DNA of 60,847 nt, from IMG/VR virus record IMGVR_UViG_3300016652_000023, positions 1 to 60,847 of that record; one strand, given 5' to 3'. A model generated the notes under the pieces. The model did no database searches and had not been told where the DNA came from. It worked only from the letters and a program-made list of their open reading frames with translations. Numbering within the stretch: the first letter of the stretch is position 1; every line of letters begins with the position of its first letter. Of the stretch, positions 12,344 to 54,636 are shown piece after piece. This DNA comes from a virus. Taxonomy: Duplodnaviria > Caudoviricetes. Position numbers and translations under genes: made by a program.

Positions 12344-12708
12344 TGGATAAGATGAGTCGCGTGATGAAAGAGTTTAAAGAAGGCAAGTTAAAGTCTTCCT
12401 CTGGGCAAAAAGTCACTAACCCCAAACAAGCCATAGCGATTGGCATATCGGAGCAAAAAGCCATGAAAGGTTACAAGATGGGTGGAGAACCCAAGGCAAT
12501 GGTCAAGAAAGAAGTTGCCTTTATGAAAGCCAAGGGCGCACCGAAGTCAATGGTCAAGCATGAAATGGCCGAGATGAAAGGTATGAAAGCTGGTGGCATG
12601 ACTAAGATGGGCGCAGTAAAGACTGCTGCACCATCTATTAACGGCATTGCCAAGAAAGGCAAGACCAAAGGCACGATGATCAAAATGCGTAACGGCGGTT
12701 CATGCTAA
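12340..12708 (+). CDS. K/M/G-rich small protein (DUF6496-like N-terminus, from memory) with shared C-terminal motif
   Basis: 'VMKEFKEGKLKSSSGQKVTNPKQAIAI'; ends GIAKKGKTKGTM. Confidence 0.7.
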   Translation: MMDKMSRVMKEFKEGKLKSSSGQKVTNPKQAIAIGISEQKAMKGYKMGGEPKAMVKKEVAFMKAKGAPKSMVKHEMAEMKGMKAGGMTKMGAVKTAAPSINGIAKKGKTKGTMIKMRNGGSC

Positions 12709-12765
12709 GAAGCGTGTAAGACTAGCGGTAGTTTGTTGTCATTCTAAATCTACAAATGGATTGAA

Positions 12766-28461: not shown

Positions 28462-28470
28462 GACTAGACC

Positions 28471-28785
28471 ATGCAATACTGGACAAAGAACGGGTCTATC
28501 CCAAGCACTGAAACTGATGGCACTGAAGGCTGGCAACCGGCTCCAGAGCCTCCGACAGACATTCCTGAAAGCAAAGAACTTGTATGGTTAAACTGGGAAT
28601 GGATCATCAGAGACCCTAAGCCACAAGACAGAGCAGGTTATCAGTGGAACTGGAACCATGCAGACAGGACTTGGGTAGAGAGTGCTTGGCAGACTGCATT
28701 GGTAGAACCCCCACCCATTGACCCAACTTCCATGACCTTTACTTCCTCACAAAGTGCCAATCTCACAACAGCACAAATAAACTAA
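28471..28785 (+). CDS. W/P-rich hypothetical protein, possibly fibre assembly
   Basis: Follows the LamG gene; Trp-rich. Confidence 0.6.
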   Translation: MQYWTKNGSIPSTETDGTEGWQPAPEPPTDIPESKELVWLNWEWIIRDPKPQDRAGYQWNWNHADRTWVESAWQTALVEPPPIDPTSMTFTSSQSANLTTAQIN

Positions 28786-28794
28786 AGGTGCATT

Positions 28795-30885
28795 ATGCCT
28801 AGCACATGGTCAGACCTTAAATTTGAACTGTTAGCAGAAGGTTCTACAAACTGGAACACCCCCACCAACGCTAATATCGGCACTGCCATAGAGCAGGCAA
28901 TTGGGGGTAGGGCTAACGTAACAATGTCATCGGCGTCGCAGTCATTAACGCTTACAGACACAACTAACTTACAAGATGCCCGAGCGTTGTATTTAAACCT
29001 TACCGGGACACCGGGAGGAGTAGCAACACTTAATGTACCTGCGGTTGAAAAGCCTTATATTGTTTACAACAACACAACAGGTGGGTTTGCGGTTACTGTC
29101 AAAGTAAGTGGACAGACCGGGGTGTCTGTGCCGAATGGCAAGGTCATGGTGCTTTATGACAATGGTACTGATGTTGTTGATGCGATTACTCACTTATCTT
29201 CACTTACGCTTGGCGCAGCCCTTCCAGTGGCTTCTGGGGGTACAGGGGTAACAACTTCCACAGGATCGGGTAATAACGTTTTATCCACCTCCCCAACGCT
29301 GGTAACTCCCGTCTTAGGCACCCCAACTTCGGGAACGTTGACCAATTGCACGGGTTTGCCATTATCCACAGGCGTAACGGGGAATCTTCCAGTAGCTAAT
29401 TTAAACGGCGGCACAAGCGCATCTTCGTCCACATTCTGGCGTGGTGATGGTACATGGGCCGCACCTAGTGGTTCCCTGACAGGTATAACAAATTCTGGGT
29501 CGCCCTATCAAACAGCGCTTGGCGGGAATGCCCTTACGTCCAATCTATCTGGTGTAGGGAATACCGCTTTAGGGTATGCCTCGCTTAATGCACTTACAAC
29601 TGGAGTTAGAAATGTTGCCGTGGGATGGGCTTCATTAAGCAGTAATAACGGATCCTATAATGTTGCAGTTGGTGAGAATGCGTTAAATAGTAATACTACC
29701 GGCAATTCTAACGTGGCTGTAGGAAGGGCCGCCTTACTAAACAATACAACAAGCAGTAATTCCGTTGCAGTGGGGTTTAGTGCGTTGGCGTCTAACACAG
29801 CAGCAAGCACTGTTGCTGTCGGTTATCAAGCTTTACTGTCTAATACATCAGGCACAAGAAATACTGCCGTTGGTTTCAACGCCTTATATGCAAATGACAC
29901 ATCTAGTAAGCAAACGGCTGTTGGTTATCAAGCTTTAAGCCAAGCAACGGGAGCTTCAAACACAGCCGTTGGGTCTGACGCAGGCACCGCCATTACAACC
30001 GGGACTTCAAATACGGCCTTGGGTGAAAGCGCATTGACAGCCCTTATAACAGGATCATATTGTGTAGCTGTTGGCGCTCAAGCCGCAATAAATAATACAA
30101 CAGATTACACAACTGCTATTGGTTATCAAGCGCTTGCAGCTAATACATCGGGAAATTACAACACGGCAGTTGGTTATGGAACTTTAGCCGCAAACACGAC
30201 ACAAAGTTACCAAACGGCTGTTGGGTTTCAAGCTTTAAGGCTAGCAACTGGAACTTCAAACACGGCTTTAGGCTCTTATGCAGGGTGGAGCATATCAACC
30301 GGCACCTCAAATGTGGCAGTTGGTGACAATGCACTTATCAATGTAACAACAGCGGCATCTTGCGTTGCCGTAGGCTCTAGTGCGTTATTTGCAGCAACAG
30401 GAGGTTTGAATACGGCAGTAGGGCGAGACGCAGGAAAGACGCTTACATCAGGAACAAACAACACCATACTTGGATACAACGCACAGCCAAGTTCTGCCAC
30501 TGTTTCAAACCAGATCACCCTCGGCGACTCCAGCATCTCAACCCTAAGATGTCAGGTCACAAGCATCACTGCCTTATCCGATGCGCGGGATAAAACCAGC
30601 ATTGTGCCGATCCAAGCAGGGCTTGATTTTGTCAGGCAGCTTAAGCCCGTAGCTTTTACTTGGAACATGCGCGATAGCGGTAAGGTCGGTGTCCCTGATA
30701 CAGGATTCATTGCTCAAGATTTGGTCAAAGCGCAAAACGATGCAGGCGTTACGATTCCTGGGCTTGTATACGCAGAAAATCCCGACAAGCTAGAAGCTGC
30801 CTACGGCAAACTGATCCCGGTGCTTGTGCAAGCTATTAAGGATTTGACCGACAAGGTTGAGGCGCTTGAACTGAGGCAGCGATGA
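28795..30885 (+). CDS. Tail fibre with beta-solenoid N(T/V)AVG..AL repeats and C-terminal intramolecular chaperone (peptidase S74-like)
   Basis: ~14-aa NTAVG repeats; 'SDARDKT.I', 'L.PV.F.W', 'GFIAQDL', '[15 protein letters not shown]'. Confidence 0.85.
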
Positions 30886-38484: not shown

Positions 38485-41400
38485 ATGCCAGTATTCAATG
38501 TCAGCGGCATGGGGGCTGTCCGACTGCCCGAAGGGCTGTCGGCAGATGACTACGAACGGATTGTTAGAAGGCTTCAGGAAAAGTCTGGGGCTGCTGCTGA
38601 AGGTACGCCAGACTATAGTGCAGGCCAAACAGCCGCGATGGCGTTGCAAAGAGGGCTTGGCGGTCTTGGCATAAGCACTTTGTATGAGTTTCCTGCACTT
38701 GCTTTGACAGGCGTAGAAAAACTTACCGGATCAGAAGCAGCGGGCCGTGGTGCTGAATCATTATTAGCAAAAGCAAAAGAAGCTACGCAGTACATGGGGG
38801 AAGTTGCGCCTCGGCGATTCCAGTCTTATAAAGAACCGGAAGGCGTAGGCCAAAGCATGTTGTATGGTTTGGAGCGCTTCAGTGAAGCGGTTCCTTCCAT
38901 TGGGACATCGCTCATAGGCGGCGGTATCCCTGCGTTATTGAGTCGTGGTGCAGCGCAACGTGTTGGCGCAGCAGCTGCCGAGAAGGCTTTAGCCGGTGGT
39001 GCAGCTAAAGAAGTAGCACAAGAAGCTGGGCAAAAGGCGGCAGAGCGGTTATTGCAACGTCGTGCGTTTGCTGGTTCAGCTGGAGTCATGTATCCAGCTC
39101 AAGCAGCAGAACCGTTTGTTGGTATCTATGAACGCACAGGCGAGCGGGAGTTTGCTGCGCCAGCGTTGTCCGGCGCTGTTTCAACGTTATTGGAAGGTAT
39201 TGTCCCAACCTCCGTGCTTGGCAATCTAGGTGCTTATGGAAGGCTCAAAGCATCCGAAAGGCTATTAGACAAAGCAGGATATGGCAAAGCAGCTGCCAAC
39301 ATTGCGCTTCGTGCCGCCGGAGTTGGAGCCGCTGAGGGCTTAACAGAAACCGCCCAGCAGGCAATTACCAATTTAGCTATCCAATCTGCGGATCAAACCT
39401 TTGATGCGTTCGGTCCTGAGCGCACACAGGAATATATTGAAGCAGCCCTTAGTGGATTCTTGGGTGGCGCTCCTATTGGTGCGGCTGGTGCAGCAGCAAG
39501 GCGTATGCGTATTCCAAGGGACACGTCCAAAGAAGAGGCGGCAGTTCAAAGATTACAGGAGCTTGCTGGTGTAAAACCACCCGTCAGCCAAGAACCACAA
39601 CAAACAGCTGTCCTACCAGTAGGACAGCGACCGGCTCCATTAGAGTTTAAAGAGCCTCCTCCTGAAGTAAAACCTCCTGAAGTAAAACCCCCGGAAATTA
39701 AACCGCCTGAAGTTAAACCGGTTGACATTCAGCCGCCGGAAGTTAAAGCACCAGAGGTCAAACCTTTGGAGGCAAAGCCTCCTGAAGTCAAGCCACCGCG
39801 TGTACTGCCGGGGCAAGAGCTTAAAAGCGGCAACGTCAGATATATGGGCCAGGATGTAAGTGTTAGCTATCGGGCTTTGCCTGATGGCCGCTTGGCACGT
39901 TACATTCAGTGGCCTGATGGTGATATGCAGCAAACCTTCCTGTCAGAGAATGAACAGGGTAATACAAAGTTCTTTAGTACAGAGGTTGCTCAGAAAGAAA
40001 AGTACGGGCTTGCCAAGTTAAAACCTGAGCAGCAGCTGGCGGCAGTTGATAAAGATCTTAACCGTTACGATGAAGCGACCGGCGAAGTATTCAAAGATGA
40101 ACTGGAAATCAGGGAGCCCAAAGGTCAGGGGCTGGTACGTTCGGCCAAAGACCTTGACCTAGACTTTGTCCACGGAACGACACTTGATAAAAAACAAGAG
40201 TTATTGCGTACAGGGAAGTTTTCCCCTGTTGGGCAAGATCGTAGTTATTCATACTCGCAATTTGGTAACCAAGCGGTTTATTTTGCCCCGCCAGGATCAT
40301 GGTGGCTGGACGAAAAAAGAGCCACAGAAGGACGTGCAGCGGTATACCCGGAGCGAGTCCAAGTAGACATTGACCCTACAGCGTCGATTGCTGTGATTGA
40401 TTCCATAGAAACATTAAATCAGTTGGCCAAGATGGCTAACTACAGGCGTGGTTCGGATCTTATGCGAGATCTAAGTGCTGAAAACTTAGACATAGAGCGT
40501 GAAATCACAGAAGCTAGGAATCAAACTTTGGCGCAGTTTATTCGCAACAGGGTGAATAAACAGAAAGAAATATTAATCCAGTTGCGTGCTAAAGAAATGC
40601 GGGCAGATCCGGAGGCTATGAAACAAGAGCTTGCAGCAATAAACAACATTAAGGTCGTTGGTGATTTAGTTGATTATTTAAACAGCACCCGAGATGAAGA
40701 TGAGCAGACATCAACTGGTGAGTTTCTATCTAGGCTAGCGGATCAGTACAAATCACTTCGGAGTAATGAAACACGACAATACTTTGAGCGCCCAGAGCGT
40801 GCGACTAAACGATTGAGAGAAGCGGGCATCGACGGTATTTATGTCACACGCGGTGTTGCTAAAGAGATAGCTCGCAAGGTAGACACCAGTGCTGAAGCCA
40901 TGCGTTTGTACAACGGGCTAGAGCCAGCTTACGAACAGCTTGCCATGTTCAACATGGAAAAGGTCAAGCCCCGCCGGGAAGAAGGTTTGGTTGCACCGCC
41001 CAAGTTTGTGGAACCGATGGCTGAGTTCGGCAAGCCTGCGGTGACTGAAGCCACGATGATTGAAGACGAACTGGCTGAGATGCAAAAGCTTATTGACAAA
41101 GCTGAGTCTCAGTCAGAGAAACAACAATCACTATGGGCAACGCTGCGCGGCAAGCTTGATTCAAAAGAAGTCACTGACATTAGTCCGGATCTTGAGTATC
41201 GCTTTTTGATTGCTCCTGAAGGAAGGGGTGTAGTTATTGGCGACCTGATTGAAGACGGGGCTTTGGACCCTTGGCTTGAAGAAGATCAGCGTGGCGATGT
41301 GTTAGATGAGAAGCTGGTTAAAGAAGCGGCAGAGTCTATTAAAGAATTGCTGCGCCGCAAGGAATACATGACCGTAGCGGCCAAGAATGAGATTGCTCAA

Positions 41401-44400
41401 TTACAGCAAAGCTTGGCTCAGTTTGAACAAAGTGTTCAAGAACTGCTCAGTGAAGAGGAAGCCCTCAAGGAGATTAACAATGCACTCGCAGAAGCTCAAG
41501 AAAGAGAAATTGATGAAGCAACTGGCCAGCCTTTCCCCGTTGACGCGAGTCGGGATTTTGAAGCAGGCGTTTCCCGAAGCGAGAGTGAACGAGGCCAAGA
41601 CTTCTTACTCCAAATCCTTCCAGAAGGAGGACAAACCGTCTCTGTAAAACGGGCCGTAAGAAAGGCTTTAAAGGAATTCAAGAAAGGTGAATCTGCCGAG
41701 ACGGCGATGACTCGGATTGACGAAGCTTTTGAAAAGGCCGAGGAGCAGCGCAAACAGAAAGAAGTGGCACCTAGACAGCGCGGTGTTGCATACATCCGCG
41801 AGCGTCTGGCCAATGCTGTACGAAACGGTTTTATTGATGAAGATGCAGCAGAATTTACTGAGTGGTTTATCCAAAGAAACCCAAGGTTGCTTGATGACTT
41901 AGCCATTTCAATTATCAAGCCGCCCGAAGCGGGCAAGCCATTGTCCGGTGCAGCTGGTGGATACTCCCCAGAACAACGTCTCATGACGTTAATCAAGAAC
42001 AGAGCGAATGACACAACAGCTGTCCATGAGATGCTGCACCACCTTGAAAGGCTGATGCCTGCTGATGTTCAGGCCGCAATCTTAAAGACTTGGGCAAAGT
42101 CATTAGCAAAAAAAGCAAAACTTGCAACAGATCCTCTGGAGCAACAGTTTTTTGATCGCTTGATGAAATATCATTTTGGCGATCCAGACAAAGGTGGCGG
42201 CGGTGACCTAATTAAAAAAGCCGCTGTAAATATGATTCGTAATGGACAGGTGGGCAGGGATCTGTATCAATACACGGATGCGTCTGAGTTCTGGGCAGAG
42301 AATGGTTCGGAAATCATGCGTGGTCGGTACGATTTAAAGCCTGGGATTATTGCCAAGCTTAAGCAGTGGCTGGCTGATGTCGCAGAGTACATCAAAGACT
42401 TCTTTAATCTTCCGTCTAAGGCTCCCATCCTTCGCGCCTTGAAGAGCTTAAGTAAAGCTGATGGTGAATACCAGAGCCTGTACATGTTGAGCAAAGGCCC
42501 GCAGCCGGTCCTGGGCGAAGACTTTGTGGCGCAGCCGGAGAAGGAAGAAGACTTTAGATTGCAGATGGCCAAATCCTCTGACCTGTTGGATGGTTCTCCA
42601 AGGGATATAGATCGTGGGCTTCGTACCATGATTGAATCAGCTCCGCGTATTGACCAAGGCATAACCAAAGTCCGTCAGGCCGTCGGTGATTTCACATCTG
42701 ACAACTCATCCATGTTGTTGTCCTTCCTTAACTTGCGGCAACTTGGTAAAGCAGCAGGCAACATCCTGCCGCAGATGATGGACTACTATCGCAAGACCAG
42801 TGAGATGCTGACCTTCAGGGACAATCGTCTTGTCCGTGCAGCGCAGCTGGTAGAGCGTTGGGACAAATGGTCTAACGACAATCCAGCAGACGGCAAAGCG
42901 TTATCCACTGTCCTACTTAAGGCAAGGCTGACAGGGCTGCGGCCAACACGAGATGAAGACTTGAAGCGGATCACTGACCAAGAGTTTCTAAATGCTTGGA
43001 ACAAGATCAAAGGCACAGAAGGCGAAAAGATCTTCAAAGAGATTGATCGGTTCTTCCGTACCAGTGCTCAGTTGTATTTCAATGCTTTGGGTAAGCGCAT
43101 CCGCAACTCCATTGAAAACAAACAAGCCAGACGGCTGGCATTTGATTTAATCAAAGCTGAGTACAACAAGTTTGTACAGGGTGGGTTTTACTTCCCGTTT
43201 GCACGTTTTGGTGATTACTGGGTTGCCTACAAATATCAAAACAATACACCGGCCTACTACATGTTTGAGAGTCAGGCCGACCAGCGCAACTTTATTGAAC
43301 AGACGGTTACGCCCAAGCTAAAAGCCAACGAGATCAAAGACTTTAAGTCCGGCACGAAGACATCTCAGATGATGGGTGACGGCGTGGCCATGTCGGAGTT
43401 CATTACCAAGCTCATGGATCTGGTGGATGAGAACGTCCAGATGAACATGTTTGGTGAATCAGCAAACAACGCGACTGCCAAGTCACAACTGAAGGATGAC
43501 ATTTGGCAGCTGTATCTCACGATGGGTCCAGACCTAAGTGTGCAAAAGCATTTCATCCACGCCAAGAAAGTCGAAGGCTATTCCGTCGATGCACTGCGGG
43601 CTTTCTCCGAATCAGCATTTCATGGGACATATCACTTAGCCAGGATTACTTACGGCGGTGACTTAGATCGTATTGTTCTTGATGCAAGGAACCTCCAAAA
43701 CAACGAGCCAAGCAATGAGCGTGGTCGGTTTGTCGAAGAGCTGCAGCGCCATCATCAGGACTTTAGTTCGCCTCAAGGTGGCAATCAGTACGTCAGTGCG
43801 CTGACTAATTTTGGCTTCATGTTTTACCTGTCGGCTCCTGCATCCGCGATTGTCAACATTTCGCAAGTGCCGATTGTTGCAGCGCCATACATGGCGGCAT
43901 TCTTTAAGAAGAGTCACCTCTATGCGCTACGGCAACTAGGCGCTGCGGCCAAGGAGTTCTTAGCATCCCGCAAGGGTACGCAGTTTGATCTGCCTGCTTA
44001 TCTCCTGGCGCAAAGCAAGAACAACGAACTAAGTTCGCAAGAGCGCAGCAAATACAAAGCGGAGTATGAAGCGATAAACCGATTGCTTGGTACGTTGAAC
44101 CGTACACAAACCTTATCGCTTGCCGGTATTGCCGAGCGTCCCAGTGCGCTCTTTGCAACGGGCATCAAAGGTGCCATGCGGACTAAGGCTTTGACCAAGT
44201 ATCAGAAGGTCAGGATTGCTTTGGGCTACATGTTCAACCAAGCGGAATTGTTTAACCGCCAAGTGACTGCACTGGCTGCATACCGCATGGCGCTTGAAGC
44301 AAAGAACCGTGACGGCACTACTAAGTATGATCAAAGTCAGGCCATCGAAGTAGCGCGTGACATTGTTGATGAAACGCACTTTGAGTATGCAGCGGAGACC

Positions 44401-45483
44401 AAAGCTAGGTTTATGCGTGGGCCGGTGGGCCAGCTGGTATTCCAGTTCATGAACTATGCCCAGCAGATGACGGCGTTGCTGGCAACAAGTCTTAAAAATT
44501 GTTTCTTAAACAAAAACGAAATGGCAAGACTTGAAGCTATTGCCAATGATAAGAACAAGACAGAACAAGAACGCAAAGAAGCACGCGAACAGATAGAAGA
44601 CATGAAGGACATCAAACGTGAGGCAATTAAACGTCTCAGTGGGATCATGTTTATGACTGGCGCATTTGCAGGCTACGAAGGATTGCCATTCTTCTGGGCG
44701 ATTGAGATGGTGATGAACGCCATGCTTGGCGATGACGATGAGCCTTATGACTTCAAGCTTGAAGCCAAGCAAGGTCTTACTGAACTCTTTGGCGATAATG
44801 TGGCCAGGATGTTCAGCACCGGCGTAATTTCAGAAGTGACACAGATGGACTGGGCGTCTCGTACAAGTCTTAATGGACTCTGGTTCCGCGAAAATGTCAC
44901 ATCCAAGGATGAGGCCGAGTGGTTACGCAACCAGTTGGTTGATGCGCTTGGCCCTGCGGTTGGCATGTTTGTTGGGGTGGCTGAAGGATTGAAGAAGATC
45001 AATGATGGCTACACCATGCGTGGGATTGAAACCATGATGCCGCCCATATTGAAAGATGGCTTTAAGTCCTACAGGTTTGCAACGGAGGGTGCAACAACCC
45101 TGCGTGGTGATCCTATTGTTGCAGATGTTGGGCCATATGGCATTTTGATTCAGCTGCTTGGGTTTACACCACAAGAGGTTGCCCGTGGCCAGGAAGCTCG
45201 TGGCGAGATCTTAAACATCGTGGGCCAGCTGGACCGCAAGCGTAGCAACTTGATGAACCGTTTATGGATAGCCCATAGGACGGGAGATACATCGGCCTAC
45301 GATGATATTGGCGATGAGATCATTGAGTTCAACAGTAAGAACCCTACTGAGGAGATCACGGACGATACGATTCGCCGGTCGTTTGCCCAGCGGCAGAGGA
45401 TCTCTGATCGTGCAGTTCAGGGACTTAGTCTGCCCGAGCGTCGCCAGTATTTATTGGAAAAGATTGAGTACGCTGGAGACTAA
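38485..45483 (+). CDS. Large polyvalent protein (ART-like, HExxH metallopeptidase-like and PLxRFG-like regions)
   Basis: 'FVHGT...AVYF...GIDGI...EQLAMFN', 'VHEMLHHL', 'YFPFARFGDYW'; VKPPE linker repeats. Confidence 0.8.
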   Translation: MPVFNVSGMGAVRLPEGLSADDYERIVRRLQEKSGAAAEGTPDYSAGQTAAMALQRGLGGLGISTLYEFPALALTGVEKLTGSEAAGRGAESLLAKAKEATQYMGEVAPRRFQSYKEPEGVGQSMLYGLERFSEAVPSIGTSLIGGGIPALLSRGAAQRVGAAAAEKALAGGAAKEVAQEAGQKAAERLLQRRAFAGSAGVMYPAQAAEPFVGIYERTGEREFAAPALSGAVSTLLEGIVPTSVLGNLGAYGRLKASERLLDKAGYGKAAANIALRAAGVGAAEGLTETAQQAITNLAIQSADQTFDAFGPERTQEYIEAALSGFLGGAPIGAAGAAARRMRIPRDTSKEEAAVQRLQELAGVKPPVSQEPQQTAVLPVGQRPAPLEFKEPPPEVKPPEVKPPEIKPPEVKPVDIQPPEVKAPEVKPLEAKPPEVKPPRVLPGQELKSGNVRYMGQDVSVSYRALPDGRLARYIQWPDGDMQQTFLSENEQGNTKFFSTEVAQKEKYGLAKLKPEQQLAAVDKDLNRYDEATGEVFKDELEIREPKGQGLVRSAKDLDLDFVHGTTLDKKQELLRTGKFSPVGQDRSYSYSQFGNQAVYFAPPGSWWLDEKRATEGRAAVYPERVQVDIDPTASIAVIDSIETLNQLAKMANYRRGSDLMRDLSAENLDIEREITEARNQTLAQFIRNRVNKQKEILIQLRAKEMRADPEAMKQELAAINNIKVVGDLVDYLNSTRDEDEQTSTGEFLSRLADQYKSLRSNETRQYFERPERATKRLREAGIDGIYVTRGVAKEIARKVDTSAEAMRLYNGLEPAYEQLAMFNMEKVKPRREEGLVAPPKFVEPMAEFGKPAVTEATMIEDELAEMQKLIDKAESQSEKQQSLWATLRGKLDSKEVTDISPDLEYRFLIAPEGRGVVIGDLIEDGALDPWLEEDQRGDVLDEKLVKEAAESIKELLRRKEYMTVAAKNEIAQLQQSLAQFEQSVQELLSEEEALKEINNALAEAQEREIDEATGQPFPVDASRDFEAGVSRSESERGQDFLLQILPEGGQTVSVKRAVRKALKEFKKGESAETAMTRIDEAFEKAEEQRKQKEVAPRQRGVAYIRERLANAVRNGFIDEDAAEFTEWFIQRNPRLLDDLAISIIKPPEAGKPLSGAAGGYSPEQRLMTLIKNRANDTTAVHEMLHHLERLMPADVQAAILKTWAKSLAKKAKLATDPLEQQFFDRLMKYHFGDPDKGGGGDLIKKAAVNMIRNGQVGRDLYQYTDASEFWAENGSEIMRGRYDLKPGIIAKLKQWLADVAEYIKDFFNLPSKAPILRALKSLSKADGEYQSLYMLSKGPQPVLGEDFVAQPEKEEDFRLQMAKSSDLLDGSPRDIDRGLRTMIESAPRIDQGITKVRQAVGDFTSDNSSMLLSFLNLRQLGKAAGNILPQMMDYYRKTSEMLTFRDNRLVRAAQLVERWDKWSNDNPADGKALSTVLLKARLTGLRPTRDEDLKRITDQEFLNAWNKIKGTEGEKIFKEIDRFFRTSAQLYFNALGKRIRNSIENKQARRLAFDLIKAEYNKFVQGGFYFPFARFGDYWVAYKYQNNTPAYYMFESQADQRNFIEQTVTPKLKANEIKDFKSGTKTSQMMGDGVAMSEFITKLMDLVDENVQMNMFGESANNATAKSQLKDDIWQLYLTMGPDLSVQKHFIHAKKVEGYSVDALRAFSESAFHGTYHLARITYGGDLDRIVLDARNLQNNEPSNERGRFVEELQRHHQDFSSPQGGNQYVSALTNFGFMFYLSAPASAIVNISQVPIVAAPYMAAFFKKSHLYALRQLGAAAKEFLASRKGTQFDLPAYLLAQSKNNELSSQERSKYKAEYEAINRLLGTLNRTQTLSLAGIAERPSALFATGIKGAMRTKALTKYQKVRIALGYMFNQAELFNRQVTALAAYRMALEAKNRDGTTKYDQSQAIEVARDIVDETHFEYAAETKARFMRGPVGQLVFQFMNYAQQMTALLATSLKNCFLNKNEMARLEAIANDKNKTEQERKEAREQIEDMKDIKREAIKRLSGIMFMTGAFAGYEGLPFFWAIEMVMNAMLGDDDEPYDFKLEAKQGLTELFGDNVARMFSTGVISEVTQMDWASRTSLNGLWFRENVTSKDEAEWLRNQLVDALGPAVGMFVGVAEGLKKINDGYTMRGIETMMPPILKDGFKSYRFATEGATTLRGDPIVADVGPYGILIQLLGFTPQEVARGQEARGEILNIVGQLDRKRSNLMNRLWIAHRTGDTSAYDDIGDEIIEFNSKNPTEEITDDTIRRSFAQRQRISDRAVQGLSLPERRQYLLEKIEYAGD

Positions 45484-49463: not shown

Positions 49464-49728
49464 CCTCCTTTGCAGGCTTAGGAGGATCTGGGCGCTTCCA
49501 TGCCTTGGAGATCTTTGCACCATAGAACTCCCCGACCGATGAACTGTTCTTCCTCCAAAGGGCAATCTCTATCTTGGCTTCCCCGCCGGACTTGAGTTCA
49601 GCCACCAGCTCAGTGAGCAACGGTACAGATAACACCACGTTGCCACGAAAGTCTGGGGCTTTGGGGTTTACTTTGTTTTGAACGCCAAAGATATTGCCGT
49701 TATCAGGTTCGCTTACATAGGTGCTCAT
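49441..49728 (-). CDS. Putative single-stranded DNA-binding protein
   Basis: Acidic 'EDDDDVPF' C-terminal tip; 'KAPDFRG'; next to ERF. Confidence 0.6.
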   Translation of the reverse strand: MSTYVSEPDNGNIFGVQNKVNPKAPDFRGNVVLSVPLLTELVAELKSGGEAKIEIALWRKNSSSVGEFYGAKISKAWKRPDPPKPAKEDDDDVPF

Positions 49729-50405
49729 GCTTCTTCCTTATCTTCGTGTGACTTGATGATCTCGTCTTTGCGGGCTTTGAAGTCGGCCAGCAGCTGGACG
49801 TATGCGCCTTGGTCATGGCCTTTGACAATGTGGATAGCGTCTTTGTTCTGCGCCCAGAATGTCTTCAATGAAGCTTCATCTTTGGCTTCAGGAAGAAAGG
49901 CTTTGAACATATCCAGAATAAACTTCACGCGATCTTTTGCCGCCTCGGGTGAAACTTCTTCCTTCGGTGCTTCAGGCTTTGGTGTCTCAGGTTTGGGTGC
50001 TTCAGGCTTTGTAGGTTTTGGAACCTCTCTTGGCTTTGAAGCCGCAGACCCATCGTCATCTTCTGGCGCAATCGCACATGCTGCCATGAGTGAATAGCGT
50101 CTGACATAGGTTAATGCACTGGCGTAGCCCTGAGCATCGTGCTTGCTGGCCGGAAAGAAAAGCTTGCCTGCACTCAGCATTTCGCCACTCTCATGAATGA
50201 ATGTGGTTTCTGCCATCGCACCATCAGGCGTCTCATGGGTCAGCTGCATCAGGTATATGCCATTGTTGTTGAGCGCATCAATGACTGCCTCAACCACGGT
50301 TGATAGGTCTGCGTAACGCGACCGGAAGTGAGGATTGGTGCTGCTCTTTAGGGCCGGACCAAATTCCTTTTGCGCTTTAACCAGCGCTGTTGCTATCTGC
50401 TTCAC
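49725..50405 (-). CDS. erf: ERF-family single-strand annealing protein
   Basis: 'ALVKAQ...K.S.NPHF.S.YADL', 'HESGE', 'AQGYASALTYVRRYSL.A..IA.EDDDG'. Confidence 0.9.
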   Translation of the reverse strand: MKQIATALVKAQKEFGPALKSSTNPHFRSRYADLSTVVEAVIDALNNNGIYLMQLTHETPDGAMAETTFIHESGEMLSAGKLFFPASKHDAQGYASALTYVRRYSLMAACAIAPEDDDGSAASKPREVPKPTKPEAPKPETPKPEAPKEEVSPEAAKDRVKFILDMFKAFLPEAKDEASLKTFWAQNKDAIHIVKGHDQGAYVQLLADFKARKDEIIKSHEDKEEA

Positions 50406-51252
50406 TGCTTTCTCCTAACGTAGATCCATAGTCACAAAACTGTTTCACAGGACAAAAGCTCATGCAGCGGGTGGGCTGGCCAGGACGATGTACAACATCA
50501 AATCCCGGCTTTTGATTTGCCAGCTCCTTAGCCTCAGCTTCTGTGAGAAACACCTTAAACGCCCGCTTGTTCCCTGCCTTGATGACTGCCCACTGATCGG
50601 GCTTCATCCATCGTTCATCAGGGGTACACATGGGCGGGTCATCCATCACAGTTGCAGCATGTAAGGCTATGCGCTGCTTGATGAATGACTCTTGTTCTTC
50701 GTACGTCCATAGTGGGACAGTGATCTGCATGATCGGCGCATCCGGGTAACCATCCTTCCCGGCATTTCGTCTTGCCCAATCACGAATGATTGCGTTGATT
50801 TTTAATCCGACAACGGCATGGCCATGAGCTCGGACAAGATAGGCGTAGCAGTTGAGTTGCTCTTCCCATTCGCTCTTGCCGGATATGGCTGCATAGGCTG
50901 ACGTTACTTTCCAGTCCTCCAGAATCCTGCCTTCTGGTGTCGTGACTTGGCGATCAATCGCCCCCGAGATCTTCCAGCCGTTGATGGTATGGAACAGCCG
51001 CTGCTCGGTAATCACCTCAGCGTGATCGCTGTATTGATCCAGCACATAGTGCGTTGCTGTCCCCAGTAGGCTGAACAACACATCCGATATATCTTGCTCC
51101 ATCTCATCGTGATGGCGTTCTTGCAGCGCAACAATCCGTGGGCTGTTGATTAACTGGGTTACGGATAACCGAGCATCACCCCTGCTGTAGTTCTTAGCCC
51201 TTGCAAACTTTACAAGGACTTCTGGTAGGTCATATTTGTTTGTTATGTTCAT
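50377..51252 (-). CDS. PD-(D/E)XK exonuclease (Cas4/RecB-like)
   Basis: 'LSVTQL', 'GTATH', 'ISGAID', 'EDWK', 'QLNCY', C-terminal C..FC....FC. Confidence 0.8.
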   Translation of the reverse strand: MNITNKYDLPEVLVKFARAKNYSRGDARLSVTQLINSPRIVALQERHHDEMEQDISDVLFSLLGTATHYVLDQYSDHAEVITEQRLFHTINGWKISGAIDRQVTTPEGRILEDWKVTSAYAAISGKSEWEEQLNCYAYLVRAHGHAVVGLKINAIIRDWARRNAGKDGYPDAPIMQITVPLWTYEEQESFIKQRIALHAATVMDDPPMCTPDERWMKPDQWAVIKAGNKRAFKVFLTEAEAKELANQKPGFDVVHRPGQPTRCMSFCPVKQFCDYGSTLGESSEADSNSAG

Positions 51253-51395: not shown

Positions 51396-51633
51396 CCTTC
51401 ATCCCCTGATCGCACGTTTGGTCTAACCCATAGCCGGTAGCAATCCATCCCGATGTGACTTCAGAGATCGTGATGTACTGACTACGCAACCACCTGTACC
51501 GCAGCGCATCGTCTTCATAGCCTTGCATCTGCCGCAGCTGGTGGCGCAACAACAGAATCTCTGAAGCTGCTTCTCTAGCCACGGTGGAATCAACATCTTT
51601 CACTGCACCCATTAATCGTTCAACGATGTCCAC
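51385..51633 (-). CDS. Hypothetical protein
   Basis: 'MDIVERL...EAASEI..LR', 'DALRYRWLR'. Confidence 0.7.
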   Translation of the reverse strand: MDIVERLMGAVKDVDSTVAREAASEILLLRHQLRQMQGYEDDALRYRWLRSQYITISEVTSGWIATGYGLDQTCDQGMKDDG

Positions 51634-51794
51634 TGTTCTCTCCGTTCTAACATTGCATCTGCAACTCGATATGCAAAATCAGCAAACGCTTCTTCTGGTT
51701 TCCTGTTGGGCATCTGCCCCCAACGTCCGGCCAGGATTCCTGTTATTGCTGCCTTCGCAAATTCATCCCTTAGTTCCTGCTTATCCATAGCCAT
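51612..51794 (-). CDS. Hypothetical protein
   Basis: 'LRDEFAKAAITGILA...AYRVADAMLERR'; AGGAG RBS. Confidence 0.75.
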   Translation of the reverse strand: MAMDKQELRDEFAKAAITGILAGRWGQMPNRKPEEAFADFAYRVADAMLERREQWTSLND

Positions 51795-51806
51795 CTCCTA
51801 AGTAGC

Positions 51807-51824
51807 TGTCCTACTGGTAGGACA
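51807..51824 (-). other. Perfect hairpin closing the repeat array
   Basis: TGTCCTAC-TG-GTAGGACA, 4 nt beyond the last anchor repeat. Confidence 0.7.
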
Positions 51825-51828
51825 CCTA

Positions 51829-52969
51829 AACCGCCGTTCCTTTACGGACCATACCGACCTTAACTCACCGAACCCTTGCTTGCCCCGCCGAGCCCTAACC
51901 GCCATACTCACCGCATCAGTCAGTGACACGCCACGCCTCAACCGCCGATACCCGACTTACCAAGCCGCACCGCACCGATCCATTACCGCCAATCCCCACC
52001 ACATGTCGCCGCAAATTTCCACGCCGTAACCGCCTTGCCCCGCCGCATCTCGCAGTGCGTTGCCGGTCCCCAACCGCCTGACCTCGCCTTGCCGCACCTT
52101 GCCTCGTCTTGCCGGTCCTAAACCGCCATGCCGATCCACGCCGTTCCTTGTCTCGTCTCGCCTCGCGTGGCCGGATCTAGCCCCAACCGCCATACCCAAC
52201 CGAACCCAACCGCACCGAGCCGCACCGCACCTAAACCGCCCAACCGCATCCGACTTATCAGTCCCCGCCTCTAAGGCCGCAACCGCCATCCTCGCCGCGC
52301 CCCGCCTTGCCCCGCCTGTCCACATCGGACCAATCCTTAACCGCCCCGCCGTTCCGCACCAAACCGATATTGCCCGACCTCAACCGCCGCGCCAGAACTG
52401 ACCCCGCCAAACCTAGCCGAAACATAACCGCCTAACAGCGGCCTACCGAGCCGATCCGCGCCTTGCCCGACCGCAACCGCCATACCTCACCCGGCCATAC
52501 CCCGCCACGACTCGTCGGACCGAAACCGCCGATCCGGGCCGTACCCCGCCCATCCGGTATTACCCGACCTCAACCGCCAGACCAATCCGCGCCGCGCCTC
52601 GCCCTGCTACGCCTCAACCGCCTTGCCATATCGAGTCTCGCCCAACCGTGCCGCGCCGAACCCGACCGTAACCGCCTCGCGTGGCCTGACCAGACCCATC
52701 CGTATCTGATCCCACCATAACCGCCAGTCCCAGCCGCACCAATCCACACGCGACCATGCCGCGCCGGACCTCAACCGCCCGACCATATCAAGTCTCGCCC
52801 ATCCAAACCGAAACCGCCTGACCGTCACACACGTTGACTCACCCGACCAACCTCAACCGCCATACCCCTCCATGCCCGACTACGCCATACCGAACCGAAC
52901 CCTAACAAACCCAACCTAAACCGCCTGACCCGTCCACACCCAGCCGGGCCGGACCCGACCTCAACCGCC
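51829..52969 (-). repeat. Non-coding array: 24 GGCGGTT anchors separated by GGY-NN pentamer runs (candidate guide-RNA array)
   Basis: + strand AACCGCC at 51829, 51897, 51940, 51984 (TACCGCC variant), 52028, 52072, 52121, 52185, 52234, 52281, 52339, 52382, 52426, 52475, 52524, 52572, 52616, 52670, 52719, 52773, 52812, 52855, 52919, 52963; period-5 NN-RCC pattern between anchors. Confidence 0.92.
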
Positions 52970-53013
52970 GCTTCTTGCAAATCCGAGTCTTGTGATGCCA
53001 TTCCGAAACATCG

Positions 53014-53481
53014 TCACGCTGCATCCTTCAGGCGCATACGCATATCTAAAAACTCTTCCATCAAACGATCAATCTCAGACTCCATGTCTAGCGCTGCGGC
53101 CACATTCCTTGCGCGGCGTAACGCAGAGATGACGCTCTGGACTTCACCGGCCAAGACTTCCTTGGCAATCTCATGCTCAGTGCGAAGCTTGATAGTTTCC
53201 AAGTAGCCCTGTTCTCTGCCGTGCAGTCTTGGGTCGCGCACATAAGCAGGAGCCTTGAGGACAATCGTCTCGGTCGTGATGTTTACCTTGACCGATGCAA
53301 TGATCCGCCGTGCGGTGTGCATCCAATGTTCTTGGGCCGCTTCCTCAACATCCCATTCAAAGAGTTCGTGCAATGGGCTGTCAGGTTGGCGAGCGTCCTG
53401 CACCACGTCAAATGGGCGCAGGACACCACCGTTAATGCGGGCTATGGCTTCCAGCCTTGCTTTAACGATGGCGTTATTCAT
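53014..53481 (-). CDS. Hypothetical partner protein between the RAMP-like gene and the array
   Basis: ATGA-coupled to the RAMP-like gene; 'VV.DAR.PDSPLH..FEWD...AA' motif. Confidence 0.8.
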   Translation of the reverse strand: MNNAIVKARLEAIARINGGVLRPFDVVQDARQPDSPLHELFEWDVEEAAQEHWMHTARRIIASVKVNITTETIVLKAPAYVRDPRLHGREQGYLETIKLRTEHEIAKEVLAGEVQSVISALRRARNVAAALDMESEIDRLMEEFLDMRMRLKDAA

Positions 53482-54245
53482 GCTGCTTTGATCCCGCGAC
53501 GACGGACTTCCACGTCATACCAGGACAACAGTTCATCTGTCTCATCATCATACGATTCAGGGTCATCAAGTGCTTCTTGTTGTGCAGCTGCCCCACCGGT
53601 CTTGATGATGTCCAGATATTCTTTGTCATTGGCTTCTACGATTTTCCACCGGCCAAAGGTTCCAGAGCCTTTCTGGGGACGCCAGTCACCAACACCCATC
53701 GTATATCCTGCTGTGGCAAAGAGTGATGAGATCACCGTTGCGTTGAGCACTGGGATGGTATAGGTCACTTCAACCTTACAAGCCCAACGTGGCACGATGC
53801 AGCGGGTACGAATGTCCGGCGTTTTGTTAATGTCAGCCGACCGAACAACCGAGCACATAATTTCTGGGATACCGTAGAGCGCAAGCTTCTCGCCGCCCTC
53901 AATGCTTGTTAATCTTCCAATCTGGGCTTTCTTGGCCCCCGGCACATCAAGCGCAGCCGTGCAGAGTGCCGCTTTGAATTGCGTATTCAAAAGGGCAAGG
54001 ACCGTCTCACTGCCTTTTCGAGCGCGGTAAATTGAATCACGATATTCCTGAAGCGGATCATGCTTAAGTGATCCTTGCTTCTCGGCGGCGGTCTTTCTGC
54101 CGCGAGGAAGCAACAACTCCCGTTGCGCTTTCACGCTCATAGAATTCATCAACAAAGGTGTTTCACCAACGATGTGATAAACAATCTTTGCACGGGTTAG
54201 TTCTACGATCTGAACTTGTTCAAGTTCGTCAGTCTTTTTACGCAT
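53478..54245 (-). CDS. RAMP/Cas7-like RNA-binding protein (candidate effector of the array)
   Basis: 'HIVGETPLLMN' first strand, 'FKAALCTAA' helix, 'RTRCIVPRWACKVEV', C-terminal Gly-rich loop 'GVGDWRPQKGSGTFGRW'. Confidence 0.7.
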   Translation of the reverse strand: MRKKTDELEQVQIVELTRAKIVYHIVGETPLLMNSMSVKAQRELLLPRGRKTAAEKQGSLKHDPLQEYRDSIYRARKGSETVLALLNTQFKAALCTAALDVPGAKKAQIGRLTSIEGGEKLALYGIPEIMCSVVRSADINKTPDIRTRCIVPRWACKVEVTYTIPVLNATVISSLFATAGYTMGVGDWRPQKGSGTFGRWKIVEANDKEYLDIIKTGGAAAQQEALDDPESYDDETDELLSWYDVEVRRRGIKAA

Positions 54246-54266: not shown

Positions 54267-54569
54267 TCAATATGAAGAAGGCATACCGGCGTGAACCCAG
54301 CGTCCGATCTGCAAAAACATAAACACAAGCACACCCATGCACACCAGCTGGGCCACGAAGCGGCTGATCCGCTCGGCCTTGCCAATGGGCAATTGATTCG
54401 CTACAAAGACATCGTGAATCCATTCTTGATCCGGCGCGACTTCGTTGTATCCCTTGGGCGGGATGCCATTGCGCTGGCCCGGTAAAGCAGAACCAATGAC
54501 TGGACGCTTCACCACAAGGTATGTCTTCTTATCGTGGGCAACGATCTTGCCCTTCCTTAGTTGCAACAT
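54267..54569 (-). CDS. Hypothetical protein with C-terminal transmembrane segment
   Basis: AAGGAG RBS; hydrophobic C-terminal stretch. Confidence 0.65.
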   Translation of the reverse strand: MLQLRKGKIVAHDKKTYLVVKRPVIGSALPGQRNGIPPKGYNEVAPDQEWIHDVFVANQLPIGKAERISRFVAQLVCMGVLVFMFLQIGRWVHAGMPSSY

Positions 54570-54580
54570 TTGTTATCTCC

Positions 54581-54636
54581 TTGACATACGAAACTGCATG
54601 AATCACAATATACACACGTTTCCTATTGCAAGTCAA
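54581..54636. promoter_or_regulatory. Overlapping divergent sigma70-like promoters
   Basis: + strand TTGACA(54581)-N17-CACAAT; - strand TTGACT(54636)-N18-TATATT; lies between divergent operons. Confidence 0.55.

What the first reader, a model, noticed from the sequence alone, without database searches (positions are those of the whole stretch)
51807..54245. Candidate non-CRISPR RNA-guided system: lone RAMP/Cas7-like gene, partner gene and GGY-NN pentamer array
Seen: in one leftward unit, a 255-aa gene is ATGA-coupled to a 155-aa gene, followed after 44 nt by a 1.14 kb array of 23 variable units and a terminal hairpin. Established: RAMP proteins (Cas7/Csm3 class) polymerise along guide RNA with a fixed nucleotide step. 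Inference: a RAMP-like subunit binds each 5-nt GGY-NN step, holding the constant GGY and presenting the variable NN, so each unit is a programmable guide. I found no cas1/cas2/cas3/cas10 or conventional CRISPR repeat, so this would be a minimal phage system, plausibly aimed at competing phages or host genes. From memory, unverified, it matches recently reported phage 'VIPR' systems, so it may be a new member rather than a new class.
Basis: partly seen in the sequence, partly recalled or inferred. Interest (0 to 1): 0.97.

Follow-up and report, generated by a model that had tools for sequence, protein, structure and literature searches.

The report
Phage VIPR system with staggered array
This uncultured freshwater phage carries a VIPR system, a CRISPR-like RNA-guided gene silencer first described in 2026, with an unusually long array of 23 guide units, so it is a new member of a known kind and not a new class.

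Summary
On the minus strand, a 255-aa gene (54245..53478) overlaps a 155-aa gene (53481..53014) by ATGA. After 44 nt comes a 1,141-nt array (52969..51829): 24 copies of GGCGGT(T) bound 23 units made of GGY-NN pentamers.

The 255-aa protein is a Vipr homologue. Its model matches Csm3/Cas7 folds, its family profile hits the solved 'SUSP1 Vipr protein', and it keeps the GVGDWR G-loop. Same-strand GGY-NN arrays follow the gene in 76 of 111 relatives, against 1 on the opposite strand.

This is a new member, not a new class.

It differs from the studied SUSP1 (type II) system in five ways:
- It has no 3' tail or pseudoknot.
- The pentamer register slips by -1 at each junction, which fits the 'staggered arrays' mentioned in that preprint.
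- The accessory protein is unrelated to Vap1.
- The Vipr is longer.
- It has 23 guide units against four.

One fully regular guide (unit 16) matches, under the 1-nt-skip rule, a conserved wobble-phased site in a LysM-protein gene of an uncultured, probably jumbo, phage family. This is suggestive but near chance level by hit count. Expression, processing and binding are untested.

The parts
54607..54636 (-). sigma-70-like promoter match (TTGACT, 18 nt, TATATT) upstream of the leftward gene string; possible operon promoter
   Evidence: It is a consensus match only: 4 sites were found in the region against 2.0 expected.
54267..54569 (-). 100-aa ORF of unknown function, 21 nt upstream of vipr; may be the first gene of the transcription unit
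   Evidence: No match in Pfam, PHROGs, PADLOC or NCBIfam. Its conservation in relatives was not checked.
53478..54245 (-). vipr: 255-aa RAMP (Cas7/Csm3-like) protein with the G-loop GVGDWR
   Evidence: AF2 model pLDDT 92.5. The top Foldseek PDB hits are all Csm3/Cas7, at about E 4e-6. The A1 profile hits PDB 36pp_D 'SUSP1 Vipr protein' at E 5.4e-7. hhalign against the SUSP1 gene gives probability 96.8%. Matches phrog_4652 of unknown function.
53014..53481 (-). vap-like accessory gene, 155 aa, ATGA-coupled to vipr; N-terminal helix/strand domain plus a long C-terminal helical hairpin
   Evidence: A conserved partner lies directly after vipr in relatives (alignment A3). AF2 pLDDT 91.3. No significant PDB fold match, best E 0.42. 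No likeness to SUSP1 Vap1.
52970..53013 (-). 44-nt leader between the vap stop and the first junction motif
51829..52969 (-). staggered vrRNA array: 24 GGCGGT(T) junctions bounding 23 units of GGY-NN pentamers, with the register slipping by -1 at each junction (GGCGG | TTNN | GGYNN...)
   Evidence: L004 and L005 have the same junction and position. Unit-level differences between strains appear in other metagenome runs.
52192..52240 (-). unit 16, the most regular guide (9 of 10 pentamers GGY). Its 18 NN bases match a conserved coding site of another phage family under the 1-nt-skip rule
   Evidence: Backwards-pattern control.
51804..51827 (-). hairpin inside the last, irregular unit, just before the ribosome-binding site of the next gene (60 aa, 51794..51612); not a typical terminator
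   Evidence: z -1.08, no U-run. Not conserved in L004.

Best explanation
The locus is a VIPR (Viral Interference Programmable Repeat) system of an uncultured freshwater tailed phage. It consists of a Vipr protein (an ancestral-type RAMP), a Vap accessory protein and a 'staggered' array of 23 vrRNA units.

Steps shown here:
- homology and fold of Vipr;
- the pentamer code of the array;
- linkage of gene and array across relatives;
- unit-level variation among strains.

Steps inferred from the published SUSP1 work. The array is transcribed with the leftward early genes. One Vipr protomer binds each pentamer, burying GGY and exposing NN. The filament pairs its NN dinucleotides with double-stranded DNA that reads NN-x-NN-x, and so silences transcription of a competing element.

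My own inferences:
- The invariant GGCGG|TT junction, where the pentamer register slips by one base, marks where one guide ends and the next begins. It takes the place of the 3' tail and pseudoknot of SUSP1 vrRNAs.
- Unit 16 is aimed at a conserved motif (MQDQADAAY) of a large LysM-domain protein gene. That gene sits next to the terminase gene of a probably jumbo phage family. I put this target at about 55% likely to be real.
For: Published system. VIPR is described as vipr plus vap plus GGY/NN vrRNAs, mostly in phages and proviruses. One protomer binds per repeat, and D177, W178, R179 and R138 hold GGY.

Protein:
- The AF2 model has pLDDT 92.5.
- Every listed Foldseek PDB hit is a type III/VII CRISPR-Cas effector complex, with the best E 3.8e-6. 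Reading the matched chains as Csm3/Cas7 backbone subunits is my own step.
- The family profile A1 hits 'SUSP1 Vipr protein' 36pp_D at E 5.4e-7, with the next hit at E 0.65.
- hhalign against the SUSP1 gene gives 96.8% probability. It aligns R148 with R138 and D187-W188-R189 with D177-W178-R179.
- R148 and R189 are invariant in A1 and A2. D187 is conserved in at least 90% of both, and W188 in at least 90% of A2.

Array. See the statistics under the observation check.

Linkage. Of 111 related loci in which the G-loop was found (115 were fetched), 76 have a same-strand array within 2.5 kb downstream, 11 have one upstream, and 1 has one on the opposite strand.

Closest relatives. L004 (Vipr 93% identical) and L005 (88%) have the same GGCGGTT junction, starting about 497 nt after vipr, but 17 and 9 bounded units of mostly different content. 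Only window units 9, 15, 21 and perhaps 23 have colinear partners in L004. More distant clades use GGCAGGC, which also gives a -1 slip.

Staggered architecture. This fits the legend of Fig. [quoted passage not shown]

Strain variation. Contigs of other runs skip exact unit multiples between junctions, namely 44, 87, 113, 142 and 240 nt.

Target:
- The unit-16 pattern (18 specified bases) gave 15 exact hits in viral contigs.
- Fourteen lie on one site, with the skipped bases at codon third positions.
- The proteins carrying that site are only 28-30% identical between lineages, and the site occurs in 7 distinct 87-nt versions.
- The backwards control gave 0 hits.
Against: No direct evidence of transcription, processing or binding. 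The RNA-library contigs that lie on the array cannot show transcription.

One third of the in-register pentamers are not GGY, and 7 of 23 units are out of register.

The residue that aligns by eye with SUSP1 H17 is N34. That is my own alignment; hhalign aligned only the C-terminal 52 columns.

Vap shows no likeness to Vap1 and has no significant fold match, so what happens after binding may differ from SUSP1.

The target evidence is weak by count:
- A 16-base pattern gave 21 hits at about 16 unrelated sites, so roughly one chance site is expected for 18 bases. Four of those 16 sites are in wobble phase by chance.
- Guide 18 gave 4 hits at 3 unrelated sites.
- Guides 5, 7 and 2 gave 0 hits.
- Guide 10 gave only chance-like hits in metagenome contigs.
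- No other guide of this array, of L004/L005 or of other relatives hits the 256,579 bases held of the target family above a shuffled-guide null.

The VIPR type cannot be named, because the type tables are in closed supplements.
Confidence: 0.87

Rival explanations
1. It is a Vipr relative that works differently from SUSP1 VIPR. It might read a different skip rule, target RNA as Csm3 filaments do, or trigger another outcome through its unrelated accessory protein and its extra C-terminal helical domain.
For: - The closest solved CRISPR folds are RNA-targeting Csm3/Cas7.
- Vap is unrelated to Vap1.
- Vipr is 255 aa against 195, with an insert after the first strand and three extra C-terminal helices.
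- N34 stands where SUSP1 has H17 (my own alignment).
- The preprint says accessory genes and architectures vary among the seven types.
- Of the 6 guides of this array scanned by exact pattern, only unit 16 found a clustered, wobble-phased target under the 1-nt-skip rule.
Against: - The GGY-holding residues R148 and D187-W188-R189 are conserved.
- The repeat is the same GGY-NN pentamer.
- The one clustered hit was found with the 1-nt-skip rule and lies in codon phase.
- The preprint states that all seven types use GGY/NN or a related consensus.
Confidence: 0.08
2. The array is largely a decayed or non-guide repeat. Only a few regular units would still act as guides. The rest would be relics or serve another purpose, such as decoys that soak up a rival's Vipr, or structural or promoter elements.
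For: - 44 of 128 in-register pentamers are not GGY, and 7 of 23 units are out of register.
- The units conserved between the window and L004 are mostly the irregular ones.
- Units 4 and 7, and units 6 and 17, share degenerate cores.
- The later preprint describes decoy and orphan vrRNAs.
Against: [quoted passage not shown]
- The junction motif is invariant in 24 of 24 copies, and the register is kept in 16 of 23 units. That argues for selection on the whole array.
- The array stands next to an intact vipr-vap pair.
Confidence: 0.04
3. The region is not an RNA array at all. It would be a G-rich protein-coding or DNA-structural repeat that happens to lie next to a RAMP-like gene.
For: - ORFs of 40-122 aa can be drawn through the array.
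- GG every five bases could form G-quadruplexes; this is my inference and was not tested.
Against: - The array content differs almost completely between phages whose flanking proteins are 89-93% identical. A coding region would not do that.
- The strand linkage to vipr holds across 111 relatives.
- A period of five is not a codon period.
Confidence: 0.01

Closest known systems
VIPR type II of Escherichia phage SUSP1 (NC_028808.2; vipr at 28474-29061, vap1 at 28031-28471, minus strand), the system studied by genetics and cryo-EM
   Same: - The two-gene vipr-vap core has the array downstream on the same strand, in a phage.
- The GGY-NN pentamer repeats are the same.
- The G-loop GVGDWRP and the thumb arginine are shared.
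- Target matching with a 1-nt skip in codon phase is shared, here for one guide only.
   Different: - SUSP1 has four vrRNAs of about 100 nt, each with 9-16 repeats and a ~40-nt tail that forms a pseudoknot, separated by spacer DNA. Here 23 units of 39-68 nt abut directly with no tail, separated only by GGCGGTT and a -1 register slip.
- Vipr here is 255 aa against 195, and only its last 52 columns align by hhalign.
- Vap is not related to Vap1.
- There is no upstream vrRNA here, since only 21 nt lie between vipr and the upstream ORF.
'Staggered vrRNA arrays' of other VIPR types (legend of Fig. S18, bioRxiv 10.64898/2026.04.26.720920)
   Same: [quoted passage not shown] Here the last pentamer of one unit (GGCGG) and the first of the next (G-TT-NN) share one G. 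Relatives do the same with GGCAG/GGCNN.
   Different: - I saw only the legend. The figure and the type tables are not held, so I cannot say which type this is, or whether the GGCGGTT junction (first pentamer GTTNN rather than GGYNN) is among those shown.
- The preprint says only the ribozyme-interspersed arrays and the single-vrRNA systems were confirmed by small-RNA sequencing. Staggered arrays therefore appear untested.
Class 1 CRISPR backbone RAMPs (Csm3/Cas7 of type III and type VII complexes)
   Same: The fold matches: RRM core, thumb and G-loop, with Foldseek E about 4e-6 and TM-scores of 0.4-0.57 normalised to the target. These proteins polymerise along a guide RNA with a fixed step, which is established for them.
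   Different: - Sequence identity is only 9-14%.
- There are no other cas genes, no Cas1 or Cas2, and no repeat-spacer array.
- The step is 5 nt with 3 bases flipped out, against 6 nt with 1.

Membership tests
VIPR system | Vipr protein: a RAMP homologue with RRM core, glycine-rich loop and thumb | tested here: met
   AF2 pLDDT 92.5. Top Foldseek PDB hits are all Csm3/Cas7. The profile hits the solved SUSP1 Vipr at E 5.4e-7. hhalign gives 96.8%.
VIPR system | Residues that hold GGY in SUSP1 Vipr (H17, R138, D177, W178, R179) | tested here: inconclusive
   R138 aligns with R148, and D177-W178-R179 with D187-W188-R189. R148 and R189 are invariant, and D187 and W188 are at least 90% conserved in the family. 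H17 seems replaced by N34, but only by my own alignment of the N-terminus.
VIPR system | vrRNA locus: tandem GGY-NN (YNNGG) pentamers, at least four units, flanking vipr, with conserved GGY and hypervariable NN | tested here: met
   75 lag-5 GGY pairs against 8.5 in shuffles, and all 16 NN dinucleotides used. NN content differs between close relatives.
VIPR system | Minimal locus (vipr plus one vap), no cas operon or CRISPR array, mostly viral | tested here: met
   Two coupled genes. Cas1 and Cas2 profiles are absent. No CRISPR-like repeats. The window is a virus record about 98% complete. Cas3 and Cas10 were not searched.
VIPR system | vrRNAs are expressed and co-purify with Vipr | not testable with these tools
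   Only assembled contigs were available. RNA-library contigs on the array cannot show transcription.
VIPR system | Targets follow the 1-nt-skip rule, with skip bases at codon wobble positions | tested here: inconclusive
   Of the 6 guides scanned, only unit 16 gave a clustered, wobble-phased exact match. The number of independent sites is at chance level.
VIPR type II (SUSP1 / P. fulva clade) | Each vrRNA ends in a conserved ~40-nt 3' tail (a pseudoknot in the SUSP1 clade) | tested here: not met
   Units abut directly. The only constant part is GGCGGTT. A unit fold is no better than shuffles.
VIPR type II (SUSP1 / P. fulva clade) | Accessory gene vap1 | tested here: not met
   hhalign of the Vap family profile A3 against SUSP1 Vap1 gives probability 0.07%.
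VIPR with staggered arrays | Adjacent vrRNAs overlap by 1 nt, so the end of one is the start of the next | tested here: met
   Sixteen of 23 units are 5n+4 long, with a -1 slip at every junction. L004 (9 of 17 units), L005 (7 of 9 units) and the GGCAGGC clades show the same. This was compared with a figure legend only.
CRISPR-Cas (class 1) | Repeat-spacer array plus adaptation and effector cas genes | tested here: not met
   PADLOC has no match for the three locus proteins.

The most novel reading that the evidence does not exclude
In staggered VIPR arrays the one-base register slip at an invariant junction (GGCGG|TTNN here) is itself the punctuation. Vipr filaments can grow only in register, so each in-phase tract is coated separately and the uncoated junction is trimmed by host nucleases. 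The protein thus measures out its own guides with no tail, ribozyme or Cas6-like nuclease.

The array is a fast-turning cassette store. Whole units come and go between strains while the flanking proteins stay 89-93% identical. This implies an unknown way of gaining units.

A 61-kb phage would use one such guide to silence a conserved virion-module gene of a roughly 340-kb jumbo phage that shares its host.
Probability: 0.25. Interest if true: 0.7.

Novelty: new member of a known kind. Interest (0 to 1): 0.5.

Why it matters
VIPR is months old in print and has been studied in one clade only (SUSP1 / P. fulva, type II).

This locus is a clean natural example of the staggered architecture, which the first preprint mentions without experimental confirmation. 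It has 23 abutting guide units and a 7-nt invariant junction. It could therefore show how guides are delimited without a tail, and how many guides one array can serve.

Strains differ by whole units, and close relatives share only 3 or 4 units out of 23. That makes the clade a good place to ask how VIPR arrays gain and lose guides, a question the passages I read do not answer.

If the unit-16 target is real, it would extend VIPR conflicts from satellites and prophages to a jumbo phage's structural gene in freshwater communities.

Tried and rejected
Self-targeting and targeting of relatives. None of the 16 in-register guides beat a shuffled-guide null on the window plus 115 related loci, 1,160,746 bases in all. 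In the reverse test, 109 strict guides from relatives scanned against the window gave no signal.

Convergence on the candidate target family. No other guide of this array hit the 256,579 bases held above the null. Neither did the 16 in-register units of L004 and L005. Of 110 strict guides, the only hit was unit 16 of this array itself.

Exact-pattern scans for other guides:
- Guides 5, 7 and 2 gave 0 hits.
- Guide 18 gave 4 hits at 3 unrelated sites.
- Guide 1 gave 21 hits at about 16 sites, and its one 5-member cluster is not in wobble phase.
- Guide 10, scanned in metagenome contigs, gave 11 hits at 5 sites, one of them a 6-member non-coding site.

Exact matching cannot see targets with mismatches, so these blanks are weak.

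Search for a cultured relative of the target phage. tblastn of the LysM protein against 50,697 phage records gave no match.

Search for close DNA relatives of the locus among deposited phages. None were found.

Host. Relatives in bacterial genomes are at most 51% identical and spread over many phyla, so no host is named.

Other blanks:
- Rfam found nothing in the array.
- Pfam, NCBIfam and PADLOC found nothing for Vipr or Vap.
- The Atlas returned only viral 'hypothetical protein' clusters.
- The Vap fold search gave nothing significant; the weak winged-helix-like rows at E 0.4-1 are not used.

Vipr-Vap complex prediction returned no verdict, with score 0.00 against a mark of 0.32. This is no evidence either way.

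RNA-library contigs over the array (run X18) cannot show transcription.

They may hold the type assignment of this clade (data S4, figs S16-S18) and the natural-target tables (data S3).
Full report
WHAT IS THERE.

The window is one virus record of 60,847 bases, rated about 98% complete. On the minus strand a 255-aa ORF (54245..53478) ends in a TGA that overlaps the ATG of a 155-aa ORF (53481..53014). Forty-four bases later an array begins.

The motif GGCGGT occurs 24 times between 52969 and 51829 and bounds 23 units of 39-68 nt. Written in fives, each unit reads GGCGG | TTNN | GGYNN GGYNN ... up to the next GGCGG. Sixteen of the 23 units are exactly 5n+4 long. The pentamer register therefore slips back one base at every junction. 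The other seven units carry an internal 1-nt indel.

The pattern is far beyond chance:
- GGCGGTT occurs 34 times in the window, against 7.5 expected and at most 14 in 100 shuffles. Twenty-three of the 34 lie in the array.
- GGY pairs five bases apart number 75, against a mean of 8.5 and a maximum of 19 in 500 shuffles.
- The junction is invariant: GGCGGT in 24 of 24 copies, T in 23 of 24, then two variable bases, then GG.
- All 16 dinucleotides occur at the NN places.

The code is not perfect. In the regular units, 84 of 128 pentamers are GGY and 99 are GGN.

The hairpin at the end (51827..51804) is real but ordinary. Its z-score is -1.08, it has no U-run, and the closest relative lacks it. 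It sits just before the ribosome-binding site of the next leftward gene. The array therefore looks like part of a longer leftward transcription unit. A promoter-like site lies at 54636..54607 (a consensus match only).

Downstream on the same strand lie small genes, a PD-(D/E)XK exonuclease and an Erf-type annealing protein.

THE PROTEINS.

The 255-aa protein has no match in Pfam, NCBIfam or PADLOC. It matches only PHROG 4652, of unknown function. It belongs to a large family:
- 1,178 proteins at E <= 0.001 among 2,171 candidates in the word-indexed search.
- 1,831 cluster representatives at E <= 0.001 in the exhaustive search.

An AlphaFold2 model built on 45 family members is confident, with pLDDT 92.5 and pTM 0.87. 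All its listed Foldseek matches in the PDB are type III and type VII CRISPR-Cas effector complexes, the best at E 3.8e-6. I read the matched chains as their Cas7-class (Csm3/Cas7) backbone subunits.

Sequence links it to Vipr directly:
- The family profile hits PDB 36pp chain D, named 'SUSP1 Vipr protein', at E 5.4e-7. The next hit is at E 0.65.
- hhalign against the gene I located in the SUSP1 record (NC_028808.2, 28474-29061 minus) gives 96.8% probability over the C-terminal 52 columns.
- That alignment puts R148 on R138 and D187-W188-R189 on D177-W178-R179. The cryo-EM preprint names these residues as holding the two guanines and the pyrimidine.
- R148 and R189 are invariant in the family. 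D187 and W188 are conserved in at least 90%.

There are differences from SUSP1 Vipr:
- The protein is 60 residues longer than the 195-aa SUSP1 Vipr.
- It has an insert after the first strand and three extra C-terminal helices.
- By my own alignment it has N34 where SUSP1 has H17.

The 155-aa protein has a conserved counterpart directly after vipr in relatives and models well (pLDDT 91.3). It shows no likeness to SUSP1 Vap1 and has no significant solved-structure match. What it does is open.

LINKAGE OF GENE AND ARRAY.

I fetched 80 related viral loci, the best of 504 confirmed, and 35 loci from bacterial genomes and MAGs. I found the G-loop in 111 of these 115 loci. A deliberately strict caller then gave the following:
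- 76 loci have a same-strand GGY-NN array within 2.5 kb downstream.
- 11 have one upstream.
- 1 has one on the opposite strand.

The caller misses real arrays such as that of L005, so 76 is a lower bound.

L004 (Vipr 93% identical) and L005 (88%) have the same GGCGGTT junction, starting about 497 nt after vipr. They have 17 and 9 bounded units, and the content is almost wholly different. Only window units 9, 15 and 21, and less clearly 23, have colinear partners in L004. None has a partner in L005.

Clades at 50-65% identity use GGCAGGC instead, which again gives a one-base overlap of two pentamers.

Contigs from other metagenome runs, laid on the locus, skip exact multiples of units from junction to junction: 44, 87, 113, 142 and 240 nt. 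Strains therefore differ by whole units.

WHAT IS KNOWN.

A full-text search found three 2026 bioRxiv preprints on VIPR.

- Preprint 10.64898/2026.04.26.720920: I read the results, the discussion, two methods sections and the figure-legend passages.
- Preprint 10.64898/2026.04.26.720927: I read two results sections.
- Preprint 10.64898/2026.10.15.759431: I read the outline, one methods section, the discussion and some passages.

They describe:
- vipr plus vap plus vrRNAs of alternating GGY/NN;
- one Vipr protomer per repeat;
- recognition of double-stranded DNA with every third base skipped, usually the codon wobble base;
- transcriptional silencing of satellites and rival phages;
- seven types that differ in array architecture, including 'staggered arrays with overlapping vrRNAs'.

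The legend of Fig. S18 says such vrRNAs derive from positions overlapping by 1 nt. That is what the -1 slip amounts to here: GGCGG and G-TT-NN share a G.

The text says that of the alternative architectures, the ribozyme arrays and the single-vrRNA systems were confirmed by small-RNA sequencing. It says nothing of the kind for staggered arrays.

The locus is therefore a VIPR system. It is not of the SUSP1 type II kind, since it has no tail and no Vap1. It fits the staggered kind. I cannot name its type because the supplements are closed.

TARGETS.

I read each in-register unit as a guide, taking the NN of every pentamer from GTTNN up to but not including the closing GGCGG. I then applied the published rule NN-x-NN.

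Nothing in the window itself or in the relatives beats a shuffled null. This agrees with the preprint's report of no self-targets.

In IMG/VR the pattern of unit 16, the one fully regular unit with 18 specified bases, has 15 exact hits.
- Fourteen are the same site, coding for MQDQADAAY on the opposite strand, with the skipped bases at the third codon positions.
- The site lies in an 836-1,257-residue open frame (in the contigs that hold it whole) with a LysM domain.
- In the longest contig this gene follows the large terminase gene and a 705-aa ORF.
- The host contigs of 14-76 kb are rated 4-22% complete. That points to genomes near 340 kb; the arithmetic is mine.
- The proteins are only 28-30% identical between lineages, yet keep these nine codons. 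There are 7 distinct 87-nt versions, differing inside the footprint only at the skipped bases.
- The closing GG of the unit is not matched in the targets. That fits GGCGG being junction and not guide.

The evidence against this target is as follows:
- The same pattern read backwards gave 0 hits. But a 16-base pattern (unit 1) gave 21 hits at about 16 unrelated sites, 4 of them in wobble phase. So about one chance site is expected for 18 bases.
- Unit 18 gave 3 unrelated sites.
- Units 5, 7 and 2 gave none.
- Unit 10 gave only chance-like sites in the metagenome collection.
- No other guide, from this array or from relatives, hits the 256,579 bases held of the target family.

What sets the unit-16 hit apart is its wobble phase combined with its place on the most conserved motif of a diverged family. 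None of the roughly 25 chance-like sites showed both. I put it at about 55% real.

VERDICT.

This is a new member of a published kind.

Its value lies in five features:
- the staggered architecture, which is untested in print as far as I could read;
- the size of the array;
- the unit-level turnover;
- an accessory protein of unknown fold family;
- a candidate jumbo-phage target.

Transcription, processing at the junction, RNA binding and DNA silencing are all inferred from homology and not shown here.

Noticed in passing
phage records (e.g. Gordonia phage Ecliptus OP820472.1 10350-10955; Mycobacterium phage Donkeykong NC_051648.1 37364-37960): Thirty deposited actinobacteriophage records (25 Mycobacterium, 5 Gordonia) encode 28-30% identical homologues of the Vipr-like protein. 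All are annotated 'hypothetical protein'. I did not check them for arrays.
   Followed up: no
window 51829-52969, units 4/7, 6/17, 9, 15, 21, 23: The units conserved between this phage and L004 are mostly the irregular, poorly GGY-conforming ones. Units 4 and 7, and units 6 and 17, share degenerate cores. Their role (guide, spacer, processing or promoter element, or decay) is unexplained.
   Followed up: partly
window 49725-51252 (minus strand): The same leftward gene string carries a PD-(D/E)XK exonuclease and an Erf-type annealing protein about 0.6 kb past the array. The exonuclease matches Pfam PDDEXK_1 and, weakly, a PHROG labelled 'CRISPR/Cas system associated'. This is an ordinary phage recombination pair, but L005 has the same order.
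   Followed up: partly
window 12766-19725 and 38485-45483 (plus strand): There are two giant ORFs of 2,319 and 2,332 aa. The first has 15-nt coding tandem repeats at 12922-13534. The second has proline/glutamate/lysine-rich 15-nt repeats at 39649-39798.
   Followed up: no
L137 (G001:60001-76106), ORF 11942-14980 and neighbours: The candidate target contigs carry thymidylate synthase, radical-SAM and sugar-epimerase genes, and a large terminase, next to the LysM-protein gene. They are rated 4-22% complete at 14-76 kb. This suggests an uncultured jumbo phage family with no tblastn match among 50,697 deposited phage records.
   Followed up: partly
L169, L171, L173, L174, L177, L179 (metagenome contigs): The unit-10 pattern hits one near-identical site with no open reading frame in six metagenome contigs. 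It is probably a chance match to an abundant sequence.
   Followed up: no
window 52001-54000: This stretch has the strongest negative GC skew of the window (-0.27) and the highest G+C (0.59). Both are caused by the G-rich array on the minus strand.
   Followed up: yes
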